From the NCBI RefSeq assembly GCF_009914755.1, contig NC_060945.1: a stretch of DNA of 64,000 bases. The stretch is one strand, 5' to 3'. The notes beneath the pieces were generated by a model. That model had not been told where the DNA came from. It saw only the letters and a program-made list of their open reading frames with translations, and made no database searches. Both the position numbers and the translations under genes were made by a program. The stretch comes from the human T2T-CHM13v2.0 reference genome, Homo sapiens. Of the stretch, positions 1 through 25,500 are shown piece after piece; positions within the stretch are counted from its first letter, which is position 1, and every line of letters starts with the position of its first letter.

Positions 1-400
1 GCGAATAGACCCCCGCGGACCCCCAAGCGCGCGGGGCCGGGGCCCTAGTTCAGGCCCTCGCTGCCCCTTTAAGGGTTCTCGAAACTTTCCCCCCGGTATC
101 AGATGAGCCTCGTCACATCCGTTGGCCGTGGCCGCTGGGGCGCTTTCCGAGGAAATTCGGGACTCGAGTTTCCCGGGGAAGAGGCGCGGCCTGAGCCCGG
201 CGAGGGTGGGGAGGGCAGGCGCAGGTGGACCCCGGCGCCCCCCGAGCCCCGCTGTGACCTTGGCCGCGGGGGAGGGGCTGGGCCGCTGCGGGGCAGTCGC
301 GGCCGCCAGAGGGGGCAGCGGAGAAGAACTTGCCCAACTTGGCGGCGCGGGCTGGGGCGGCTCTGCGCCTCCGCGCCCGCCTCCCCGGCCTCCGCCTTCT

Positions 401-7579: not shown

Positions 7580-7585
7580 TTTATT
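7580..7585 (-). terminator. Candidate distal polyadenylation signal (AATAAA) for PLAC4
   Basis: The + strand reads TTTATT, i.e. AATAAA on the - strand, downstream of the PLAC4 ORF. The position fits my recollection of the annotated 3' end, but other AATAAA hexamers exist. Confidence 0.5.
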
Positions 7586-11396: not shown

Positions 11397-11906
11397 TGAG
11401 GGTGTCAGGGTGAGGAGTGAGGGTGTCAGGGTGACTGAGGGTGCCAGGGTGAGGAGTGAGGGTGTCAGGGTGAGGAGTGAGGGTGTCCAGGGTGAGGAGT
11501 GAGGGTGTCAGGGTGAGGAGTGAGGGTGTCCAGGTTGAGTGAGGGTGTCCAGGATGAGGAGTGAGGGTGTCCAGGGTGAGGAGTGAGGGAGTCCAGGGTG
11601 AGGAGTGAGGGAGTCCAGGGTGAGGATTGAGGGTGTCAGGGTGAGTGAGAGTGTCCAGGGTGAGGAGTGAGGGTATCCAGGGTGAGTGAGGGTGTCCAGG
11701 GTGAGGAGTGAGGGTATCCAGGGTGAGTGAGGGTGTCCAGGGTGAGTGAGGGTGTCAGGGTGAGTGAACGTGTCCAGGGTGAGTGAGGGTGTCCAGGGTG
11801 CAGAGTGAGGTGTCCAGGGTGAGGAGTGACGGTGTCTGGGGTGAGTGAGGGTGTCCAGGGTGAGGAGTGAGGGTGTCAGGGTGAGTGAGGGTGTCCAGGG
11901 TGAGTG
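11397..11906. repeat. G-rich minisatellite/VNTR, ~18-22-bp units (GGGTGAG[GA]GTGAGGGTGTC[C]A)
   Basis: More than 20 imperfect tandem units are directly visible. Confidence 0.95.
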
Positions 11907-11960: not shown

Positions 11961-12134
11961 CTAGTTTAAAATTGTGCTCTGAGGTTAGATTTTAGTAGAA
12001 CAAAGGCCTTACAAAGAATGTGAAAACATTGTGCTTCCCTGCTTACAGGCAATTAAAAAGGAGAATCAAGCTGAGGGTGCCTGGTGTGGGGTGGGGTGGA
12101 GAAGACCACAGAGACTATTGTGTGTTTTATTCAA

Positions 12135-12215
12135 CAGTGTCCTGGGCTGCTTTCTCCAGAAATGTCCCTGACACATGGATGTAAGTGTGGCTAGTTTACT
12201 GGGAGATGATCCCAG
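12135..12215. mobile_element. Old MaLR LTR (MLT1I/J-like), left part, interrupted by the provirus
   Basis: TGTCCTGGGCTGCTTTCTCCAGAAAT...TAGTTTACTGGGAGATGATCCCAG. The element continues at 19416 (CCAGGA...TGTGGGCCACTGAGACCCACTCCCCACTGGGGAACTCTGAGAG). Confidence 0.6.
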
Positions 12216-12661
12216 TGATGCAGGACAGGCGAGCCCTAAGATTGAAGCATAGCCCGGGAGGGTTCTTAGCTTTGCCCAGGAAGGAACTCAAGGGCAAGCC
12301 AGTGGTGTTAGCAACTTTTATTGAAGCGGCCGGCTGTGCACAGCAGCAGCAGAGGCGCTGCTCCTTGCAAAGCAGGGCTGCCCTACAGGCTGTGCGCCCA
12401 CAGTAGCAGCTCAGAGGCAGTTCTGCAGTGGTATTTGTATCCACTTTTAATTATATGCAAATGAAGGGGCAGTTTATGCAGACATTTCCAGGGTGAGGGT
12501 GGTAACTTCTGGGTGCTGCCAGAGCCATGGTGAACTGACTTGACACAGGTCGGTGTGTCCTATGGAAACTAGCATCTGCCCTGGACCTATTTTAGCTAGT
12601 GCTCAGTTTGGTCTGAGTGCCTGAGCCCCACTTCCAGAGTTGAGTCCCACCTCCTACCTCA
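12216..12661 (-). mobile_element. 3' LTR (MER66A-like)
   Basis: Homologous to 18933-19415. The - strand begins TGAGGTAGGAGGTGGGACTCAACTC. It has AATAAA at 12317-12322 and is preceded by the polypurine tract AAGGGGGAA (12662-12670). Confidence 0.9.
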
Positions 12662-12779
12662 TTCCCCCTTCAGAGATTAGATACTCCTCCTTAATCTTAA
12701 GGGGGCTGCAGAAGGGCGGAGATCTGTTTTCCGTAACTACTTCCTGCTGAGTTTATGGACGTAGGCCCTGCCTGGCACT

Positions 12780-14322
12780 GGAGGAGTAAAAATCTCTGGA
12801 TACCTGATCTAAGGAGCCCAGAGGCAGGACGATTTCATTCTCCGTGTCAGTGGACAGGATGGGCTGGAAGCCTTGTGCCAGCATTGTCTCTGGAACTGTG
12901 GTAATCTAGAATACACAAACTTTACTAAGAGGTTAAAGAAGCAAGGACCAAACATTTGTAACAAGACAGTTGTCAAAGGTCCTAGAAGAGGTGAAAAACA
13001 GGTGAGACTTGGGAAGGCACTTTTGATGGTTGACCAGATATAGTTGGGGGCAGTGCCCTGGTTATATCTATGTAACTAGGTAGCTTGCTCATAGATCTTT
13101 TGAATGTTAACCTCAACCTGTCCAGAGTTAATATATGTGCAGCAGGTTTTATTAATAACTGCACAAGACCCCACCTTGTTCAGCTAGTAAATAATCCAAT
13201 GCTAGTCTGTTATCAACAACTACATTTTCCAGAGTCTGGGGAACTCTTGAATTCTCTTTAATGCCTGATCTCCGTTGGTGGCTAAGGATTCTAGGATTTG
13301 AGCCAAGTTCTTTAGCGTTAACTCATGGTAGGCAAAGCCACCCCAGGGTGCTGCTAGTCCTATTGCCACCCTGATTCCTGCCAGAATTAGTTTTATTGCT
13401 TACTTATTTCTGATATTCTTGGGTCCTAGGCGTTATAGATTGTGACCCCTGGAGGGGTAAGAGTGGCCAACGTTCATTCATGTCAGTTCCAAGTTTTTTA
13501 GATACAAGGGAAAGCTATTCCTTAAAGAAGAGGTGACTCCTTAGGGAGTTGGAGTGGTTACAGGGTGTGACTTCTTCCCATTCATAGTCACAAACAAAAA
13601 TGAACCCAACTAGGGCACCAAGAGAAGCCCTGCGGGGTGCGATGTTTATACTTCATTGCCAGGTTGGGTCTATAGAGATATTTTCCACCTGTTCTCATGG
13701 TGGTGGTTGAACAATCTTTGTTTTCTAGAAGAAGGTAGTACTGTCACCTTCCCAGATCAGGCAGTTGTTTTTCCTTTGTATGTTCCCATCCGGGAGAAGG
13801 TACCATATATGGTCTTTTCACTCACAAATGGAATCTCATTTACCTCCCCGTGGTCTTGGAAACTTGGCAACTAGAGTTGGACCAGAGCATCGCAGGGAAG
13901 CTTCCACTTTTGTGTCATTAATGCAAGAGTGGATGCAAATGTTAGAGTTATGAGTGCACTGGAGATATAGATGCCCAACTTCCCAGATTCCGATAATAGT
14001 GGTCAGGGCAGGGGGACAGCAGGGTCCAGGGGGGATCCACTAAGTGGGGAAGAGTTCCACTTCACAATAGGGGTTTGGGTATTTTGGGGTGCTATGGTTA
14101 GTTAGGAGGTCTGGGGACATGGTCCTGAGATTTTCCAGATAGGTCGGAAGATGAAACTGTCTATCCTGGGGGTGTTGATGACAAATCTGGCAGCCATAAA
14201 GATGATTCTATGATGCTATAATTTTTGAAATATTTACTGTAGAATTTTGTCCACCCTCCCTGTCCACATACACACTAGCTTAGGTTAATTAGAAGAGCAA
14301 ACAGAATTAACAGTGGCATCAT
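12780..14322 (-). pseudogene. Decayed env, ERVV-1/ERVV-2 (HERV-V)-like
   Basis: Manual translation gives: signal peptide MMPLLILFALLINLS; NSTVNISKIIAS*NHLYGCQICH (CXXC at 14181-14192); furin site RNK*; fusion peptide AIKLILAGIRVAIGLAAPWGGFAYHELTLKNL; ISD NVVVDNRLALDYLLAEQGGV; CAVINKTCC; and the TM tail FGPCFFNLLVKFVYSRL. There are several stops and frameshifts. Confidence 0.9.
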
Positions 14323-14472: not shown

Positions 14473-14700
14473 TTACATTACCTCTTCTGGCTGAGTGTTG
14501 ATTATTTTAAATAGGTAGCAGAGGTCTTCCAAAGCTTTACTGATATTGGTTGTGGTTGTAGTGCCCTTCCTTTGTGCCTGTGACTCATAAGAAACAGGTT
14601 TAGTCCTGGATCTGTGTGCCCAAGTAGGTGTTCCCTGAAGTTTAACAGCAGTGGGGGTACTTAACAATACCTGATAAGGCCCCTTCCATTTCATTGTAAT
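14473..14700 (-). pseudogene. Integrase C-terminal remnant (GPY/F motif)
   Basis: ORF KWKGPYQVLLSTPTAVKLQGTPTWAHRSRTKP is a typical gammaretrovirus-like integrase C-terminus. Confidence 0.85.
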
Positions 14701-16149
14701 TGATTCTTGGGGTATCCCTGTCTTTACCCTGTCTTTAAGGTTTTAGCAAGACTAAGTCTCCTGGTTGAACCGGGGAGCTATTTTTTCCTTTGTGGGGAAG
14801 GACAGTATTTTATTTTTATATTGGAGGGCCTTTTGAACCTGTCCTAAATTCTAAAGGGGAGGGGGGAAGGTTCATATAGGTAATTACTACAAGCCAAGAC
14901 CACAGCAGCTCAACACATAAAATCCATAGACAAATCAGTTTTACAACCCCATTTCCTGGCTTCTAGTTCTTGGCTTCCATACTGCTCAAAAGGAGTTCAA
15001 GGGCCAATGAGTGCCCGCCCACCTCCACACTCATGCACTGTGCAGATGACTTACACAGACCATCTACAACATAGCTGAATTTCCTGACATGTTCTATACT
15101 ACCTCTTTCTTAAAGTTATTTTACTCTAGGATAGGGAATTTACTATACAGGATTCCTCCACATATAAAATTACTCTTTCTTTATATCCTTCCTTGCAAAA
15201 CAAACAAAAAATACATTTTCTATTCATAATATTCTTTACATCTCTCTTTTCTACTCACTGGTTCACTCATGTTTTGAACCTCCCATTTAGTAACTTCCGG
15301 ATTAGACAAAAAATTTTTTCTCAATAAAGAATACATTTCTTTAGCACATTTTATGGAAACCTAGGAAGGAAGAAGTCATGAACTTCACACTAGACATTGT
15401 CATTCTATAACTGAGAACCATTCTACCATTTTATGATTTTAAACCACACATTAAGCATATCCCATTTACGTGTATTTAATTATTTCACTTTTAACTTTAT
15501 CTAGATCACCGAGAACCAAGGTACCATGCAAAGCTGGTCACCATTTAAAGCCATTTTAACCATTTTAAAGCCTATGAACATCAGTGACTTACCTAGGTAA
15601 AAATCCTAAAGTTAAATTTTAGAAGATACAAGATTCTCTTCAAACTAATAAGCTTTCAGTAGTCTTATTTGTTGAATGTATGAGTGTTCTTTTATCTATA
15701 AGCCAGTTTGACAGCACGCTAGATGTAACACACATCACAATACATGTACATATACCCAAAAACATATTAAATAAAATGACCTATACAAGACAACTGGATT
15801 CAAGTTATTTACAGAACTGGGACCCATCTACCTGGCCAAATTTTGTTTGCCCCGATAGGTATGGAAAACAGGAAAAGGCAGGACAGGGAATCCCATAGCA
15901 TCAACTAAAAAGGGGAGGAAGCAAACTGCATTGCTCAAAAGGAGATTCTGGAGTCCCCACGCCACTGGAGAGCACACTCAGTGGTGGAAATACCAAAGAA
16001 AAATGTTCAGGCGGCTGCTTATCTGCCACTGTGGAAAGCTGTCCTCTGGGACAGTAAACTTACTTGAGCTAAGCAGCTCACTGGGGCTAGTAGGAGAAGG
16101 TTAGCTCTAGTATTGATGGAAGCTTTTTGTTGTTATTGTTCTCTCTCAC

Positions 16150-17427
16150 CAGAGCAGTTAGGACATTTGCATTGCCAGGGGCCCTTTTGCGTATAGTAGG
16201 CGCAGTGATTCTGGCCCAGGGGTCAGCAAGTCAGGCATCAAGTCTTGTCTAGGCATCCCAGATGCTAATTTTGTAACATTTTCTCAAGATGAGTAATCCT
16301 GAGGGGCAAGGAGGCTTAAAGTCACTGTTAACAATTGTACTTTTTGGCTATTTCTTTTTACTCCCCTCTTTTGCCCTGTCCCTGTTGTTGTAAACTTTAA
16401 AGGCTATGTTTAAGCGTCGTTTCATAGGACTTGAAGGTCCCATTGCTGCTTTTTGTAGATTCCTCCTAATGTCAGGAGAAGATTGAATGAGAAAATGTAT
16501 ACCCAGGAGAGCTTGCCCTTCTGGGGTGTCTGGGCCTGCATTAGTATATTTCCTGAGTGCTTCAACTAAAAGACCCTGAAACAGAGCGGGATTTTCATCT
16601 TTTCCCCGAGTTACTTCTTTAACCTTGTCATAATTGACTGGCTTAACCACACACTTTTTCCTCTACTTTTTTTTCCCCACAGCACAGCAAGCGGATGACA
16701 ATATTTGTAAATCGTGGCAATTTGAAGAACATAGTCAACGTAACAAACTCTTGTATAAGCTTTTCTGGTTTATCTGAAAACTGGCCAATTCTTTCCTTTT
16801 ATAAGGTCTAATTAGACATGGAAAGTGGCATATGTACTCTTTGAGTGTTCCCTCATTTCCATCAACTACTTTCCACAGTGGACACAGGCTTGACCTTAGG
16901 GGCTGATATGGAGCCCCACTCCTGGTGTACTGGTTGGGCTCATTTTCTTGGGCAGCAGAGGGTATAGGCTAGGGCTAGTTGGATAAGGGGGAAAGGTGCC
17001 TGATGATATTGGGGTGGAATCTCATTAGGGAATTGGCGAGAACCCCCACTCAGGACTGGGGGACTGAAGAGACTCTGGGGAGGCTTATGAACTTTCTATG
17101 GGGAGCAGCTAGGTGGGGATCCCTTATGCATGGCATTCTAATGCCTGGAAGTAACGTGATCCAGTATAGAGCCATAAAAGCCTGTACATAAGGGATCTCT
17201 TCCCATTTTCCTTCTCTTTTACAAAATAAGCCTAATCGTAAAATATCACTATAGTATATAGAACCATGTTTAGGCCAGATATATTCGTCATCTAACTTGT
17301 ATTTAACCCAAATGGTGTTGCAATACAAAATGAGTTTCTTTTTCTTTAAGCCAAATTTGAATTTGCTCCAATAGCTTAAAAGACACCCTAGCGGCGAGTC
17401 CCTTGGGATACTCCTTGTTGTCCCCAT
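16150..17427 (-). pseudogene. Disrupted gag (matrix, capsid/MHR, degenerate zinc knuckle)
   Basis: Matrix MGTTRSIPRDSPLGCLL...YCNTIW...WEEIPYVQAFMAL (17050-17427); capsid KPVNYDKVKEVTRGKDENPALF...FLIQSSPDIRRNLQK (16348-16650); NC-like LGQNHCAYYTQKGPWQCKCP near 16155-16220. Confidence 0.9.
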
Positions 17428-18911: not shown

Positions 18912-18930
18912 GTCCCTTTGCTGGTTGCCA
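18912..18930 (-). other. Primer-binding site, tRNA-Arg-like
   Basis: The - strand reads TGGCAACCAGCAAAGGGAC, starting 2 nt after the 5' LTR. It resembles the ERV9-type Arg PBS TGGCGACCACGAAGGGAC. Confidence 0.7.
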
Positions 18931-18932
18931 GA

Positions 18933-19415
18933 TGATGCAGGACAGGCAAGCCCCAAGACTGGGGCTTAGCCTGGGAGAGTTCTTGGATTTGCCCAAAGAT
19001 TCAAGGGTGAGCTGGTGGTGTTAGGCAGCAGCTTTCATGGAAGCAGCTGTGCACAGCAGCGCCAGAGATGCCGCTCCTTGCAGATCAGGGCTGCTCCATA
19101 GGCTGTGTGCCCTGAGTAGCAGCTCAGAGGCAGTTCTGCAGTCATATTTATACCTACCTTTAACTATATGCAAATTAATGGGCGGTGTATGCAGATACTT
19201 CTAGGATGAGGGTGGTAACCTTAGGGCCATTGGGTCATTGCCATGGAAAGGGGTGGTAACTTCTGGGTGTTGCCATGGAAACGGTAAACCGACATGGCAT
19301 GCTGGTGGGTGTGTCCTATGGAAAACTGCATCTGCCCTGACCTGTTTTAGCTAGTGCTCAGTTTGGTCCTATGTCCAAGCCTTGCCTCTGGAATCAAGTC
19401 CCGCCTCCTGCCTCA
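18933..19415 (-). promoter_or_regulatory. 5' LTR (MER66A-like), candidate PLAC4 promoter
   Basis: The - strand begins TGAGGCAGGAGGCGGGACTTG. TATAAATA is at 19145-19152 (-) and an octamer ATGCAAAT at 19168-19175. It is followed by the PBS. Confidence 0.85.
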
Positions 19416-22528: not shown

Positions 22529-25500
22529 AGTCCACCCCTCGTCAACTTGAACCCATACACATCTGAGATCATACATAATCTTCAAATAAAGACAATAATA
22601 AGGTCATAATTATGCCTAACATATTACAACTATTCTTTGTACAACCTGAAACACACCAGTCTCCAACCCAAATACTATTACATAAAGTTAACAATACTTA
22701 AATGCTGATTTGAAGTCAGTAAATCTTATGTCACATGCTAAAGGAAAAAGGAAATAAAATCAAGATATTTTCTTAGTACAAGTATAAACATGCACAAACA
22801 TGTTTTTAACAAAACAAGGAAAAAATACTCATGACAATTACAGTCCTCGTTTCTGCAGCTGGTCACGTGGTTGTAGCCGGTATTGATGACTGCCTTCTTC
22901 TACTACCCATTCTGTATTCCCTTTGCCTTCAGCAAACACCTTGGCAGGTTGTGATTTTTTTTTCCTGGTGGAGTGACCCAAACCTTCATTCCTGAAGGGT
23001 CTGGGCCATTTCTAGTCCTGCCTGGATTGGGCTGTTGTAGTTTCCCATTGATCTTAATCACAGGGCATGGTAATACTAAGAGATGCCCTAATGGATCTCC
23101 TGTATTCCATGAGTACTCTTCCTTACCTCCATTGTGGAGTAGTAGACTGATTTCATCTTGATAGTCTGGGTCAATCACCCCGGCCAACTGTAACTCCCAT
23201 CTTAGCCTGTTGACTTAAAGGTAGGAGGAGCCCAAAGTGTCCAGGTGGCAATCTGAACTTACAGTTTAATGGGATTGTTGTTGTGTCTCCTGGTGGCAGT
23301 GTTCCTCCCTCTGGAACTAAGACCTCTAGACCAACAGAACTTAATGTCATGGGAACAGGCAGCAAAAATTTTGCTACTTAATCACTAGGGGTGATGGTGA
23401 GTGATGCCACTTCCACTTCCAACCCTTGATTCCTGGACCCGTGAATCCTGGCTATGGGAGAAACAGTACCATATATGGGACGCTGATTCAGAGCATACAC
23501 GGCCTTCTGGAGAACTTTGTCCCAGGCATGCAAAGTATTGTCACCTAGTTGGCATTGTAATTGTGACTTTAAAAGGCCATTCCAACATTCTGTCAATCCA
23601 GCTGCTTCAGGATGATGGGGAGAACATGGTGAGACCAGTGCATTCCATGAGAATGAGCCCACTGTCACACTTCTTTAGCCATAAAGTGAGTGTCTTGGTC
23701 AGAGGCAATGCTGTGTGGAATACCATGACGGTGGATAATGTATTCCGTGAACCCACGGATGGTAGTCTTGGCAGAAGCATTGTGTGCAGGATAGGCAAAC
23801 CCATATCCAGAGTAAGTGTCTATTCCAGTGGGAACAAACCTCTGCCCTTTCCATGATGGAAGAGTTCCAATATAATCAACCTGCTACCAGGTAGCTGGCT
23901 GATCACCCCTAGAAATGGTGCCATATTGAGGACTCGGTGTTGGTCTCTGTTGCTGGCAAACTGGGCACTCAGCAGTGGCCATAGCCAGGTCAGCCTTGGT
24001 GAGTGGAAGTCCATGTTGCTGAGCCCATGTGTAACCTCCATCCCTGCTACCATGGCCACTTTGTTCATGGACCCACTGGGTGATGACGGGGGTGGCTGGG
24101 GAAAGAGGCTGAGTGGTGTCCACAGAAAGGGTCATCCTATTCACTTGATTATTAAAATTCTCCTCTGGTGAGGTCCCCCGTTGGTGAGCACTCACATGGG
24201 ATACAAATATCTTCACAATTTTTGACCACTCAGAGAGGTCCATCCACATCCCTCTTCCCCAAATTTCTTTGTCACCAATTTTCCAATCATGCTTCTTCCA
24301 ATTCCCTGATGATCCAGCCAAACCATTGGCTACGGCCCATGAATCAGTGTATAATCACACAGCTGGCCATTTCTCCTTCCATGCAAAGTGCACAACCAGG
24401 TGCACTGCTCGAAGTTCTGCCCACTGGGAAGATTTCCCTTCACTGCTGTCCTTCATGGATGCCCTAGAAAGGGGCTGTAGTGCTGCAGCTATCCACTTTC
24501 GGGTGGTGCCTGCATATCATGCAGAACCATCTGTGAACCAAGTCCTAGTCTTCTCTTCCTCTGTCAGCTGATCATAGGGAACTCCCCACGAAGCCATCAG
24601 TGCAGGCTAAGGGAGAGAAGGCAGGGTGGCAGGAGTGGAGACCAGGGCATTTGAACCACTTCCTCATGTAACTTACTTGTGCCTTCAGGATCTGCTCGAG
24701 CCCAATCACGTATATACCACTTCCATTTGATGATGGAATGCTGCTGTGCATGACCCACTTTATGGCTAGATGGGTCAGAAAGTACCCAGTTCATGATAGT
24801 TCAGGTCGCATGGTGACTTGAAACATTCAGTTTCCACCAAAGCCCAGTAACAGGCCAAGAGCTCTCTCTCAGAAGGAGAGTAGTTATCTGAAGAAGATGG
24901 CAGGGCCTTGCTCCAATATTCTAGAGGCCTCCACTGTGATTCACCTATGGAGGCCTGCCAACAGCTCCAATCAGCATCCCTATCTGCCACTGACACCTCA
25001 AGCACCATTGGATCTGCTGGGTCGTATGGCCCAAGTGGCCAAGCAGCTTGCACAGCAGCCTGGACCTGTTGCAGAGCCTTCTCCTGTTCTGGACTCCACT
25101 CAAAATTGGCAGCCTTTCGGCTCACTCGATAAATGGGCTGGAGTAACACACCCAAATGAGGAATGTGTTCCCTCCGAAATCCAGATAGGCATTGTGCTCT
25201 TTCTTGGTTGTAGGAGGGACTAAATGCAGCAACTTATCCTTCACCTTAGAAGGAATATCTTGACAAGCCCCACACCACTGGACCCCTAGAAATTTTACTG
25301 AGGTAGAAGGTCCCTGAATTTTAGTCATATTTATTTCCCATCTCCTGGCACATAAATGTCTCACCAATAAGTCCAGTGTGTTTGCTACTTCTTGCTCACT
25401 GGATCCAATCAGCATAATGTCATCAAACTAATGGACCAGTGTGATATCTCGTGGAAACGAAAAGCGATCAAGGTCTCTCCAAATAAGATTATGACATAAA

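What the first reader, a model, noticed from the sequence alone, without database searches (positions are those of the whole stretch)
12780..14322. Decayed paralog of the placental ERVV-1/ERVV-2 envelope, on the transcribed PLAC4 strand
Seen (missed by the ORF track): the - strand gives NSTVNISKIIAS*NHLYGCQICH, RNK*AIKLILAGIRVAIGLAAPWGGFAYHELTLKNL, NVVVDNRLALDYLLAEQGGV/CAVINKTCCTYIN and FGPCFFNLLVKFVYSRL. As I recall them, the HERV-V envelopes carry near-identical blocks (SKIIASGNHLSNCWICH, APWGGFTYHDVTLRNL, DNRLALDYLLAEQGGVCAVINKSCC, FGPCFFNLL). The last furin-site codon is a TAA (13400-13402), and frameshifts flank the immunosuppressive domain. Inference: the same ERV family supplied both captured placental env genes and this placental lncRNA. 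The locus may be a former or lineage-specific syncytin-like gene.
Basis: partly seen in the sequence, partly recalled or inferred. Interest (0 to 1): 0.72.

Follow-up and report, generated by a model that had tools for sequence, protein, structure and literature searches.

The report
Dead MER66 envelope in PLAC4 provirus
This is the broken envelope gene of an old retrovirus whose gag fragment is already reported as the placental protein PLAC4; it is only a distant cousin of the placental ERVV genes and is likely an ordinary neutral fossil.

Summary
The env blocks are real, at the stated places, and far above chance. They are the env of a 7.2-kb provirus (LTRs 19415-18933 and 12661-12216, 4-base target duplication, Arg-type primer site) whose gag ORF (17427-17050) is letter for letter the published PLAC4 protein. 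The family is not HERV-V. ERVV-2 matches only 24 N-terminal residues and the TM part. In contrast, 25 of 29 fetched human loci match most of the env at 70-79% DNA identity. The TM tree rejects a clade with ERVV-1/2 (AU p 1.4e-5), and HERV-V has a Val primer site and unrelated LTR and gag DNA. Three family hits carry the same ISD text as published MER66-LTR rows, so the family is most likely MER66. The env holds 14 stops and 9 frame changes (family median 10). Its branch dN/dS is 0.75, against 0.60 in dead sister copies, while the gag control gives 0.28. Verdict: a neutral MER66 env fossil in the 3' untranslated part of a gag-coding placental transcript, not a former syncytin. Other primates could not be examined, so an intact monkey copy is unlikely but not excluded.

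The parts
18933..19415 (-). 5' LTR, 483 bases (MER66A-type by inference)
   Evidence: 78.6% identical to the 3' LTR over 440 columns, TG...CA ends, CTGG target duplication outside both LTRs
18913..18930 (-). Primer binding site, tRNA-Arg(TCG)-like
   Evidence: 13 of 18 ungapped to tRNA-Arg, best of 22 tRNAs; 4-7 of 18 to four tRNA-Val
17050..17427 (-). Gag matrix-type ORF, 125 aa, the PLAC4 protein Q8NAM4
   Evidence: Same sequence as Table S2 of PMC12679747, 3 peptides, dN/dS 0.272; first ATG of the RefSeq transcript; branch dN/dS 0.28 here
16348..16662 (-). Gag capsid (p30) remnant, cut off from the ORF above
   Evidence: Pfam Gag_p30 E 1.5e-14
14473..14742 (-). Integrase C-terminal remnant; only 1.6 kb lies between capsid and this piece, so most of pol is absent
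   Evidence: Pfam MLVIN_C E 8e-10; distance
13403..14322 (-). env signal peptide and SU, broken (stop after 15 codons, further stops and frame changes)
   Evidence: 57% to the unnamed relative P0038 over 236 residues
13400..13402 (-). Stop codon at the SU/TM cleavage-site position
   Evidence: also a stop in 16 of 25 sister copies
12753..13399 (-). env TM remnant: fusion peptide, ISD 13226-13167, CX6CC from 13165, membrane anchor, tail; frame changes near 13236, 13166 and 12892, stop at 13078
12662..12671 (-). Polypurine tract
   Evidence: Directly before the 3' LTR
12216..12661 (-). 3' LTR, 446 bases, AATAAA at 12322; lies inside RefSeq enhancer 12047-12856
   Evidence: 48 matches in the genome from 40 of 1146 candidates scored; enhancer from the hub's gene table

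Best explanation
The stretch is the stop- and frameshift-ridden env gene of a class I provirus, likely of the MER66 family, and it likely makes no protein and merely rides in the 3' untranslated part of the PLAC4 transcript, whose reported product is the provirus's gag matrix fragment. Shown: the proviral anatomy, the family of dispersed copies, the separation from HERV-V, the breaks, and the identity of the gag ORF with PLAC4. Inferred: (1) a copy lacking most of pol integrated before the simian radiation; (2) a promoter in or near the 5' LTR drives placental transcription, which reads through the 3' LTR to an AATAAA at 7585; (3) scanning ribosomes take the first ATG (gag) and do not reach env, 62 ATGs further on, and even a spliced env RNA would stop after 15 codons; (4) selection kept the gag fragment and left env to decay.
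For: Family: 59 DNA matches (40 of 119 candidates scored), none at the ERVV loci on chr19; 25 of 29 fetched loci cover at least 1400 bases at 70-79%; 21 of those 29 carry the same LTR end. TM tree of 52 rows: 31 family rows on one side, 100/100; path to ERVV-2 0.83 against a family median of 0.23; AU p 1.4e-5 against joining ERVV-1/2. Name: ISD text of three family hits equals that in rows of PMC4724089 Table S1 labelled MER66A LTR / MER66-int on chr1, 9 and 20; two rows are classed MER66, the chr1 row PRIMA41. Decay: 14 stops in env-like frames; 9 frame-changing indels against a median of 10; longest open stretch 88 codons, third shortest of 26; branch dN/dS 0.75 (0.43-1.24) for SU end plus TM and 0.60 (0.32-1.17) for the SU start, against 0.60 pooled in sisters. 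Positive control: gag core 0.28 (0.11-0.71), lowest of 12 rows, no stop, close to the published 0.272. No intact full-length relative closer than ERVV in four protein searches.
Against: No other primate genome could be read. The dN/dS intervals are wide and the gag interval overlaps that of its sisters (0.38-0.79); over the whole gag ORF the value is 0.42 (0.22-1.07). In the TM tree the window's end branch is short (0.076, median 0.12), though dN and dS are both low there (0.078, 0.103) and the whole-env branch is ordinary (0.12 against 0.13). The ISD and CX6CC text are well kept. The MER66 name rests on matching hg19 rows to T2T places without liftover, and this locus was not found in that table (searched with recalled coordinates). 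Promoter position and lack of env translation were not tested.
Confidence: 0.86

Rival explanations
1. The env was a placental envelope gene for some time after insertion, or is still intact in a monkey lineage, expressed with the gag fragment as at HERV-V1, and was lost on the way to humans.
For: Placental transcription of the locus and selection on its gag (PMC12679747); short TM end branch; wide dN/dS interval, lower bound 0.43; most stops are absent from most sister copies, so they arose after insertion and their dates are unknown.
Against: The load of breaks equals that of unselected sisters of the same age; dN/dS is not below theirs; no relative of 451 aa or more found with the SU query (0 of 455 candidates), longest of 27 hits 290 aa. 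These searches depend on annotation.
Confidence: 0.06
2. It is a third, decayed human member of HERV-V, a true paralog of ERVV-1/ERVV-2.
For: Shared N-terminal block and TM; PMC12679747 captions its Fig. 6, which includes PLAC4, as HERV-V gag genes; PMC555746 and PMC2567338 call MER66 one of the closest families.
Against: AU p 1.4e-5; Arg against Val primer site, with the HERV-V loci as control at 14-15 of 18 to tRNA-Val; no DNA match at E under 1e-4 between the provirus and 18 kb upstream of the ERVV genes; gag 46-48% to gagV1 against 52-68% to the 11 best hits, six of which lie beside env-family loci; both papers report only two HERV-V copies in human.
Confidence: 0.03
3. The env DNA has a non-coding job: part of the enhancer over the 3' LTR, or an RNA element in the long PLAC4 3' untranslated region.
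For: RefSeq enhancer 12047-12856 covers the 3' LTR and the last 100 bases of env (hub table); low dS in the TM part (0.103 against 0.182).
Against: Whole-env divergence is ordinary; dS in the SU start is ordinary (0.184 against 0.190); the enhancer is explained by the LTR alone.
Confidence: 0.05

Closest known systems
MER66 (MER66A LTR, MER66-int; HERVFRD-like supergroup of Vargiu et al., PMC4724089)
   Same: Sister loci with the same LTR and env match published MER66-LTR rows by chromosome, strand, rough place and ISD text; LTR divergence 21% against 16-23% in most of those rows; one row has an Arg primer site.
   Different: This copy lacks most of pol and, unlike 9 of the 11 sister gags compared, has a stop-free matrix core that is under selection.
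HERV-V: ERVV-1 and ERVV-2 env, gagV1 (chr19q13.41)
   Same: Same env architecture, 24-residue N-terminal block (67%), TM 44% as read in one frame, simian age, placental transcription, a co-opted gag in the same provirus.
   Different: Most of SU not alignable, TM DNA 58%, Val primer site, unrelated LTR and gag DNA, intact 477 and 535 aa frames.
PLAC4 gag gene (Q8NAM4; PMC12679747, PMC2008291)
   Same: The same locus; ORF 17427-17050 is the published protein.
   Different: The passages seen do not describe its env, LTRs or MER66 origin.
Syncytin-1 and syncytin-2 (538 aa ORFs on chr7 and chr6, names recalled)
   Same: Gamma-type TM with ISD and CX6CC.
   Different: TM only 35% and 29% identical; they are intact and the window's env is not.
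CARenvV and ARTenvV (PMC9604959)
   Same: Co-opted genes from proviruses with MER66-like env sequence, so this env lineage can be captured.
   Different: Those are conserved ORFs in carnivores and artiodactyls; not compared by sequence here.

Membership tests
HERV-V | tRNA-Val primer binding site (PMC555746) | tested here: not met
   Window 4-7 of 18 to Val, 13 of 18 to Arg; HERV-V loci 14-15 of 18 to Val
HERV-V | TM groups with ERVV-1/2 | tested here: not met
   (AU p 1.4e-5)
HERV-V | SU homologous along its length | tested here: not met
   Only ERVV residues 25-48 and 301-492 match
HERV-V | Shared LTR and gag DNA | tested here: not met
   No blastn match at E under 1e-4 to L067 or L068; only 149-158 bases of TM to L031 and L032
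MER66 | env groups with loci published as MER66 | tested here: met
   L020 is in the 31-row group and shares ISD text, chromosome and strand with a MER66 row; two more hits do too
MER66 | LTR matches the Dfam/Repbase MER66A model | not testable with these tools
   No repeat library held; indirect only: same LTR end in 21 of 29 sister loci, and published rows list MER66A LTRs
MER66 | Primer site type | tested here: inconclusive
   Arg-like here; the published rows give mixed, mostly low-scoring types, with R in three
Class I (gamma-like) provirus | LTR-PBS-gag-pol-env-PPT-LTR with target duplication | tested here: met
   pol reduced to an integrase tail
Syncytin / captured env gene | Intact open frame | tested here: not met
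   14 stops, 9 frame changes, longest ATG frame 48 codons
Syncytin / captured env gene | Purifying selection | tested here: inconclusive
   Branch dN/dS 0.75 (0.43-1.24), not below dead sisters at 0.60; no orthologs available
Syncytin / captured env gene | Placental expression of env RNA or protein | not testable with these tools
   Lies within the annotated single-exon PLAC4 RNA; the 3 reported peptides are all gag
Syncytin / captured env gene | Cell fusion activity | not testable with these tools
   No product exists in human

The most novel reading that the evidence does not exclude
The PLAC4 provirus was once a two-gene placental capture, gag fragment plus envelope, independent of and parallel to HERV-V1, and its MER66 envelope is still an intact placental gene in some monkey lineage.
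Probability: 0.05. Interest if true: 0.65.

Novelty: new member of a known kind. Interest (0 to 1): 0.17.

Why it matters
As an env fossil it matters little: it is one of at least 26 near full-length dead copies. The useful by-product concerns PLAC4. Its gag comes from a provirus that is separate from HERV-V, so PLAC4 and gagV1 are likely two independent placental captures of gag from related families. The mapped LTRs give candidates for the PLAC4 promoter (5' LTR) and for the annotated enhancer (3' LTR). If an intact env turned up in monkeys, it would be a new primate placental envelope gene.

Tried and rejected
1) HERV-V membership: rejected. 2) A family-wide SU-only envelope, suggested by the cleavage-site stop in 16 of 25 sisters: not supported; the stop needs 6 changes on the tree (shuffled mean 7.7, 67 of 500 as low), and the window's stop differs in type from 15 of the 16. 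The tree is nearly a star, so inheritance is not excluded. 3) A short ATG frame at 14464-14351 that looks like a signal peptide: it ends after 37 codons, and the start that matches relative P0038 is at 14322. 4) One Pfam query (13510-14280) was in the wrong frame and is disregarded; the gag query there began one codon late and had no Pfam match. 5) Stops at 14042 and 13517, shared by most sisters, lie outside the env-like frame and were dropped; one search gives the corrected list of 14. 6) Four of 29 family loci (L023, L024, L025, L029) were left out of the env alignment as too short; L034 and L035 were left out of the tree as repeats of L030 and L002. 7) No solved structure matches the gag ORF. 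8) The locus was not found in the Vargiu table by recalled hg19 prefixes; inconclusive. 9) PMC10759522 (HERV Ribo-seq) has no mention of PLAC4 or MER66 in its main text. 10) Boso et al. 2021 (PMC8662612) was not available to read.

Full report
Observation. Pfam TLV_coat matches the TM frame (E 7e-7). Human ERVV-2, fetched from chr19 and translated (535 aa), scores 150 bits on the TM part and 35.8 bits on the N-terminal block. The best of 100 shuffles scores 26.2. The env starts at an ATG at 14322 and ends at a stop at 12755-12753 that 15 of 18 sisters share.

Anatomy. A self-comparison finds one repeat pair. These are LTRs at 19415-18933 and 12661-12216, with TG...CA ends and a CTGG target duplication. 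They are 78.6% identical, K2P 0.26, which gives 43-87 Myr for assumed rates of 3.0 to 1.5e-9 per site per year (rates from my own knowledge). Between them lie a primer site, a 1.5-kb leader, a gag ORF at 17427-17050, a capsid remnant (Gag_p30, E 1.5e-14), an integrase tail (MLVIN_C, E 8e-10), env and a polypurine tract. Only 1.6 kb separates capsid and integrase tail, so most of pol is missing. Four sister loci align through that stretch to about 15400-15600, so the shortened form was copied as such.

The gag ORF is PLAC4. PMC12679747 (passages, all of section 15, and supplement rows) reports PLAC4 as a 125-aa gag matrix ORF. It lists three peptides and dN/dS 0.272 over 40 simian sequences, and its listed sequence equals the window's ORF. 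PMC2008291 (one passage) had already noted a gag domain in PLAC4. PMC13361550 (passages and supplement passages) reports low promoter methylation in placenta. The gag ATG is the first ATG of the RefSeq transcript, 62 ATGs lie between its stop and the env ATG, and the env ATG meets a stop after 15 codons. The env therefore sits in the 3' untranslated region; that it is not translated is inferred, not tested.

Family. The env DNA finds 59 matches in the genome (40 of 119 candidates scored), none at the ERVV loci. Of 29 fetched loci, 25 cover at least 1400 bases at 70-79%, and 21 carry the same LTR end. ERVV-2 DNA matches only 158 bases at 71.5%, and residues 49-300 of its protein find nothing in the env region. 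In a TM tree of 52 rows the window and 30 family rows form one side of a branch (100/100), and ERVV-1/2 sit among other groups. The path to ERVV-2 is 0.83 against a median of 0.23 within the family, TM identity is 58% against up to 86%, and forcing the window with ERVV-1/2 is rejected (AU p 1.4e-5). The primer site fits tRNA-Arg(TCG) best among 22 tRNAs (13 of 18) and fits tRNA-Val at 4-7 of 18. Both HERV-V loci fit Val at 14-15 of 18, as PMC555746 states (passages). No LTR or gag DNA is shared with the HERV-V regions. PMC2567338 and PMC555746 (passages) give two human HERV-V copies and name MER66 among the closest families. Rows of Table S1 of PMC4724089 with MER66A LTRs on chr1, 9 and 20 have the same strand, rough place and ISD text as three of my family hits. 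The name MER66 is thus an inference from matched sisters, since no repeat library is held.

Decay. The env-like frames hold 14 stops and 9 frame-changing indels, against a median of 10 in 25 sisters. The longest stop-free stretch is 88 codons (range 85-174 over 26 rows). Branch dN and dS were taken from pairwise distances. For 240 codons of SU end and TM, dN/dS is 0.75 (bootstrap 0.43-1.24); for 120 codons of the SU start it is 0.60 (0.32-1.17); sisters pool at 0.60 in both. Values under 1 in dead copies are expected from this simple count and from selection during viral replication (own knowledge), so the sisters are the baseline. The same method on gag codons 1-87 gives 0.28 (0.11-0.71), the lowest of 12 rows, against 0.57 (0.38-0.79). 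Over the whole ORF it gives 0.42 (0.22-1.07) against 0.65. The control points the right way but its interval overlaps the baseline, so power is limited. Against my reading, the TM end branch is short (0.076, median 0.12). There dS is reduced more than dN, and over the whole env the branch is ordinary (0.12 against 0.13).

Intact relatives. TM query, 346 aa or longer: 2 of 516 candidates, an ERVV-type cluster (46%) and a bat env (49%). TM query, 108-345 aa: 35 of 143, best identity 74% over 46% of the query. SU query against all representatives: 27 hits, longest 290 aa. SU query, 451 aa or longer: 0 of 455. No intact ortholog appears, but these sets hold only predicted proteins.

How it most likely works. 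A MER66 provirus lacking most of pol inserted antisense in BACE2 intron 1 before the simian radiation. Placental transcription, likely from the 5' LTR region 1.4 kb upstream of the RefSeq 5' end, runs through gag, env and the 3' LTR (AATAAA at 12322) to an AATAAA at 7585. The matrix fragment is translated and selected, and env decays. It works like a pseudogenic passenger, not like a syncytin. PMC555746 found even envV non-fusogenic in its assay; a later report of fusion by monkey envV2 is recalled only.

Novelty. The locus and its gag are in print. In nine literature searches I found no description of the env remnant or of a MER66 origin for PLAC4. Subscription papers, Boso et al. 2021, bioRxiv supplements and genome-browser repeat tracks were not seen and may well state it. 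PMC9604959 (passages) shows that MER66-like env was captured in carnivores and artiodactyls, which keeps a monkey capture conceivable. PMC5753468 (passages) lists MER66_I in the HERVFRD-like group. Verdict: a new member of a known kind, interest 0.17.

Noticed in passing
window 17050-17427 (-): PMC12679747 places PLAC4 on chromosome 7 in its text but at chr21:41,184,718-41,185,095 in Table S2, and captions it among HERV-V gag genes; the tests here point to MER66.
   Followed up: yes
window 13400-13402 and 13818-13820 (-): These two codons are stops in 16 of 25 and 11 of 23 sister copies, scattered over the tree (6 and 9 changes); likely recurrent mutation at hypermutable sites.
   Followed up: partly
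window 12047-12856: The RefSeq enhancer covers the whole 3' LTR, which makes it a candidate LTR enhancer for PLAC4 or BACE2.
   Followed up: no
window 18933-19415 and 12322: The 5' LTR has no AATAAA while the 3' LTR keeps one; the annotated RNA nonetheless reads through to 7563.
   Followed up: partly
window 11397-11904: 22-base tandem repeat, about 25 copies, inside the PLAC4 3' region.
   Followed up: no
window about 22900-24350 (-): Frames resembling ERVL-type pol pieces (RNase H, integrase, dUTPase-like; names recalled).
   Followed up: no
L056 (G000:C5:60131400-60133800): This decayed env is the sister of ERVV-1/2 in the TM tree (100/100), a closer ERVV relative than the window's env, although papers report only two HERV-V copies.
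   Followed up: no
L039 (G000:C23:102105053-102105367) and L047 (G000:C11:48509738-48510082): Two sister gag matrix regions are also free of stops (161- and 121-codon frames), with branch dN/dS 0.58 and 0.48, like dead copies.
   Followed up: partly
L053 (G000:C22:34967000-34969400): Resembles a published MER66 row of env group MER66_B but falls outside the window's env group, on the ERVV side (84/87), so MER66 elements likely carry more than one env lineage.
   Followed up: partly
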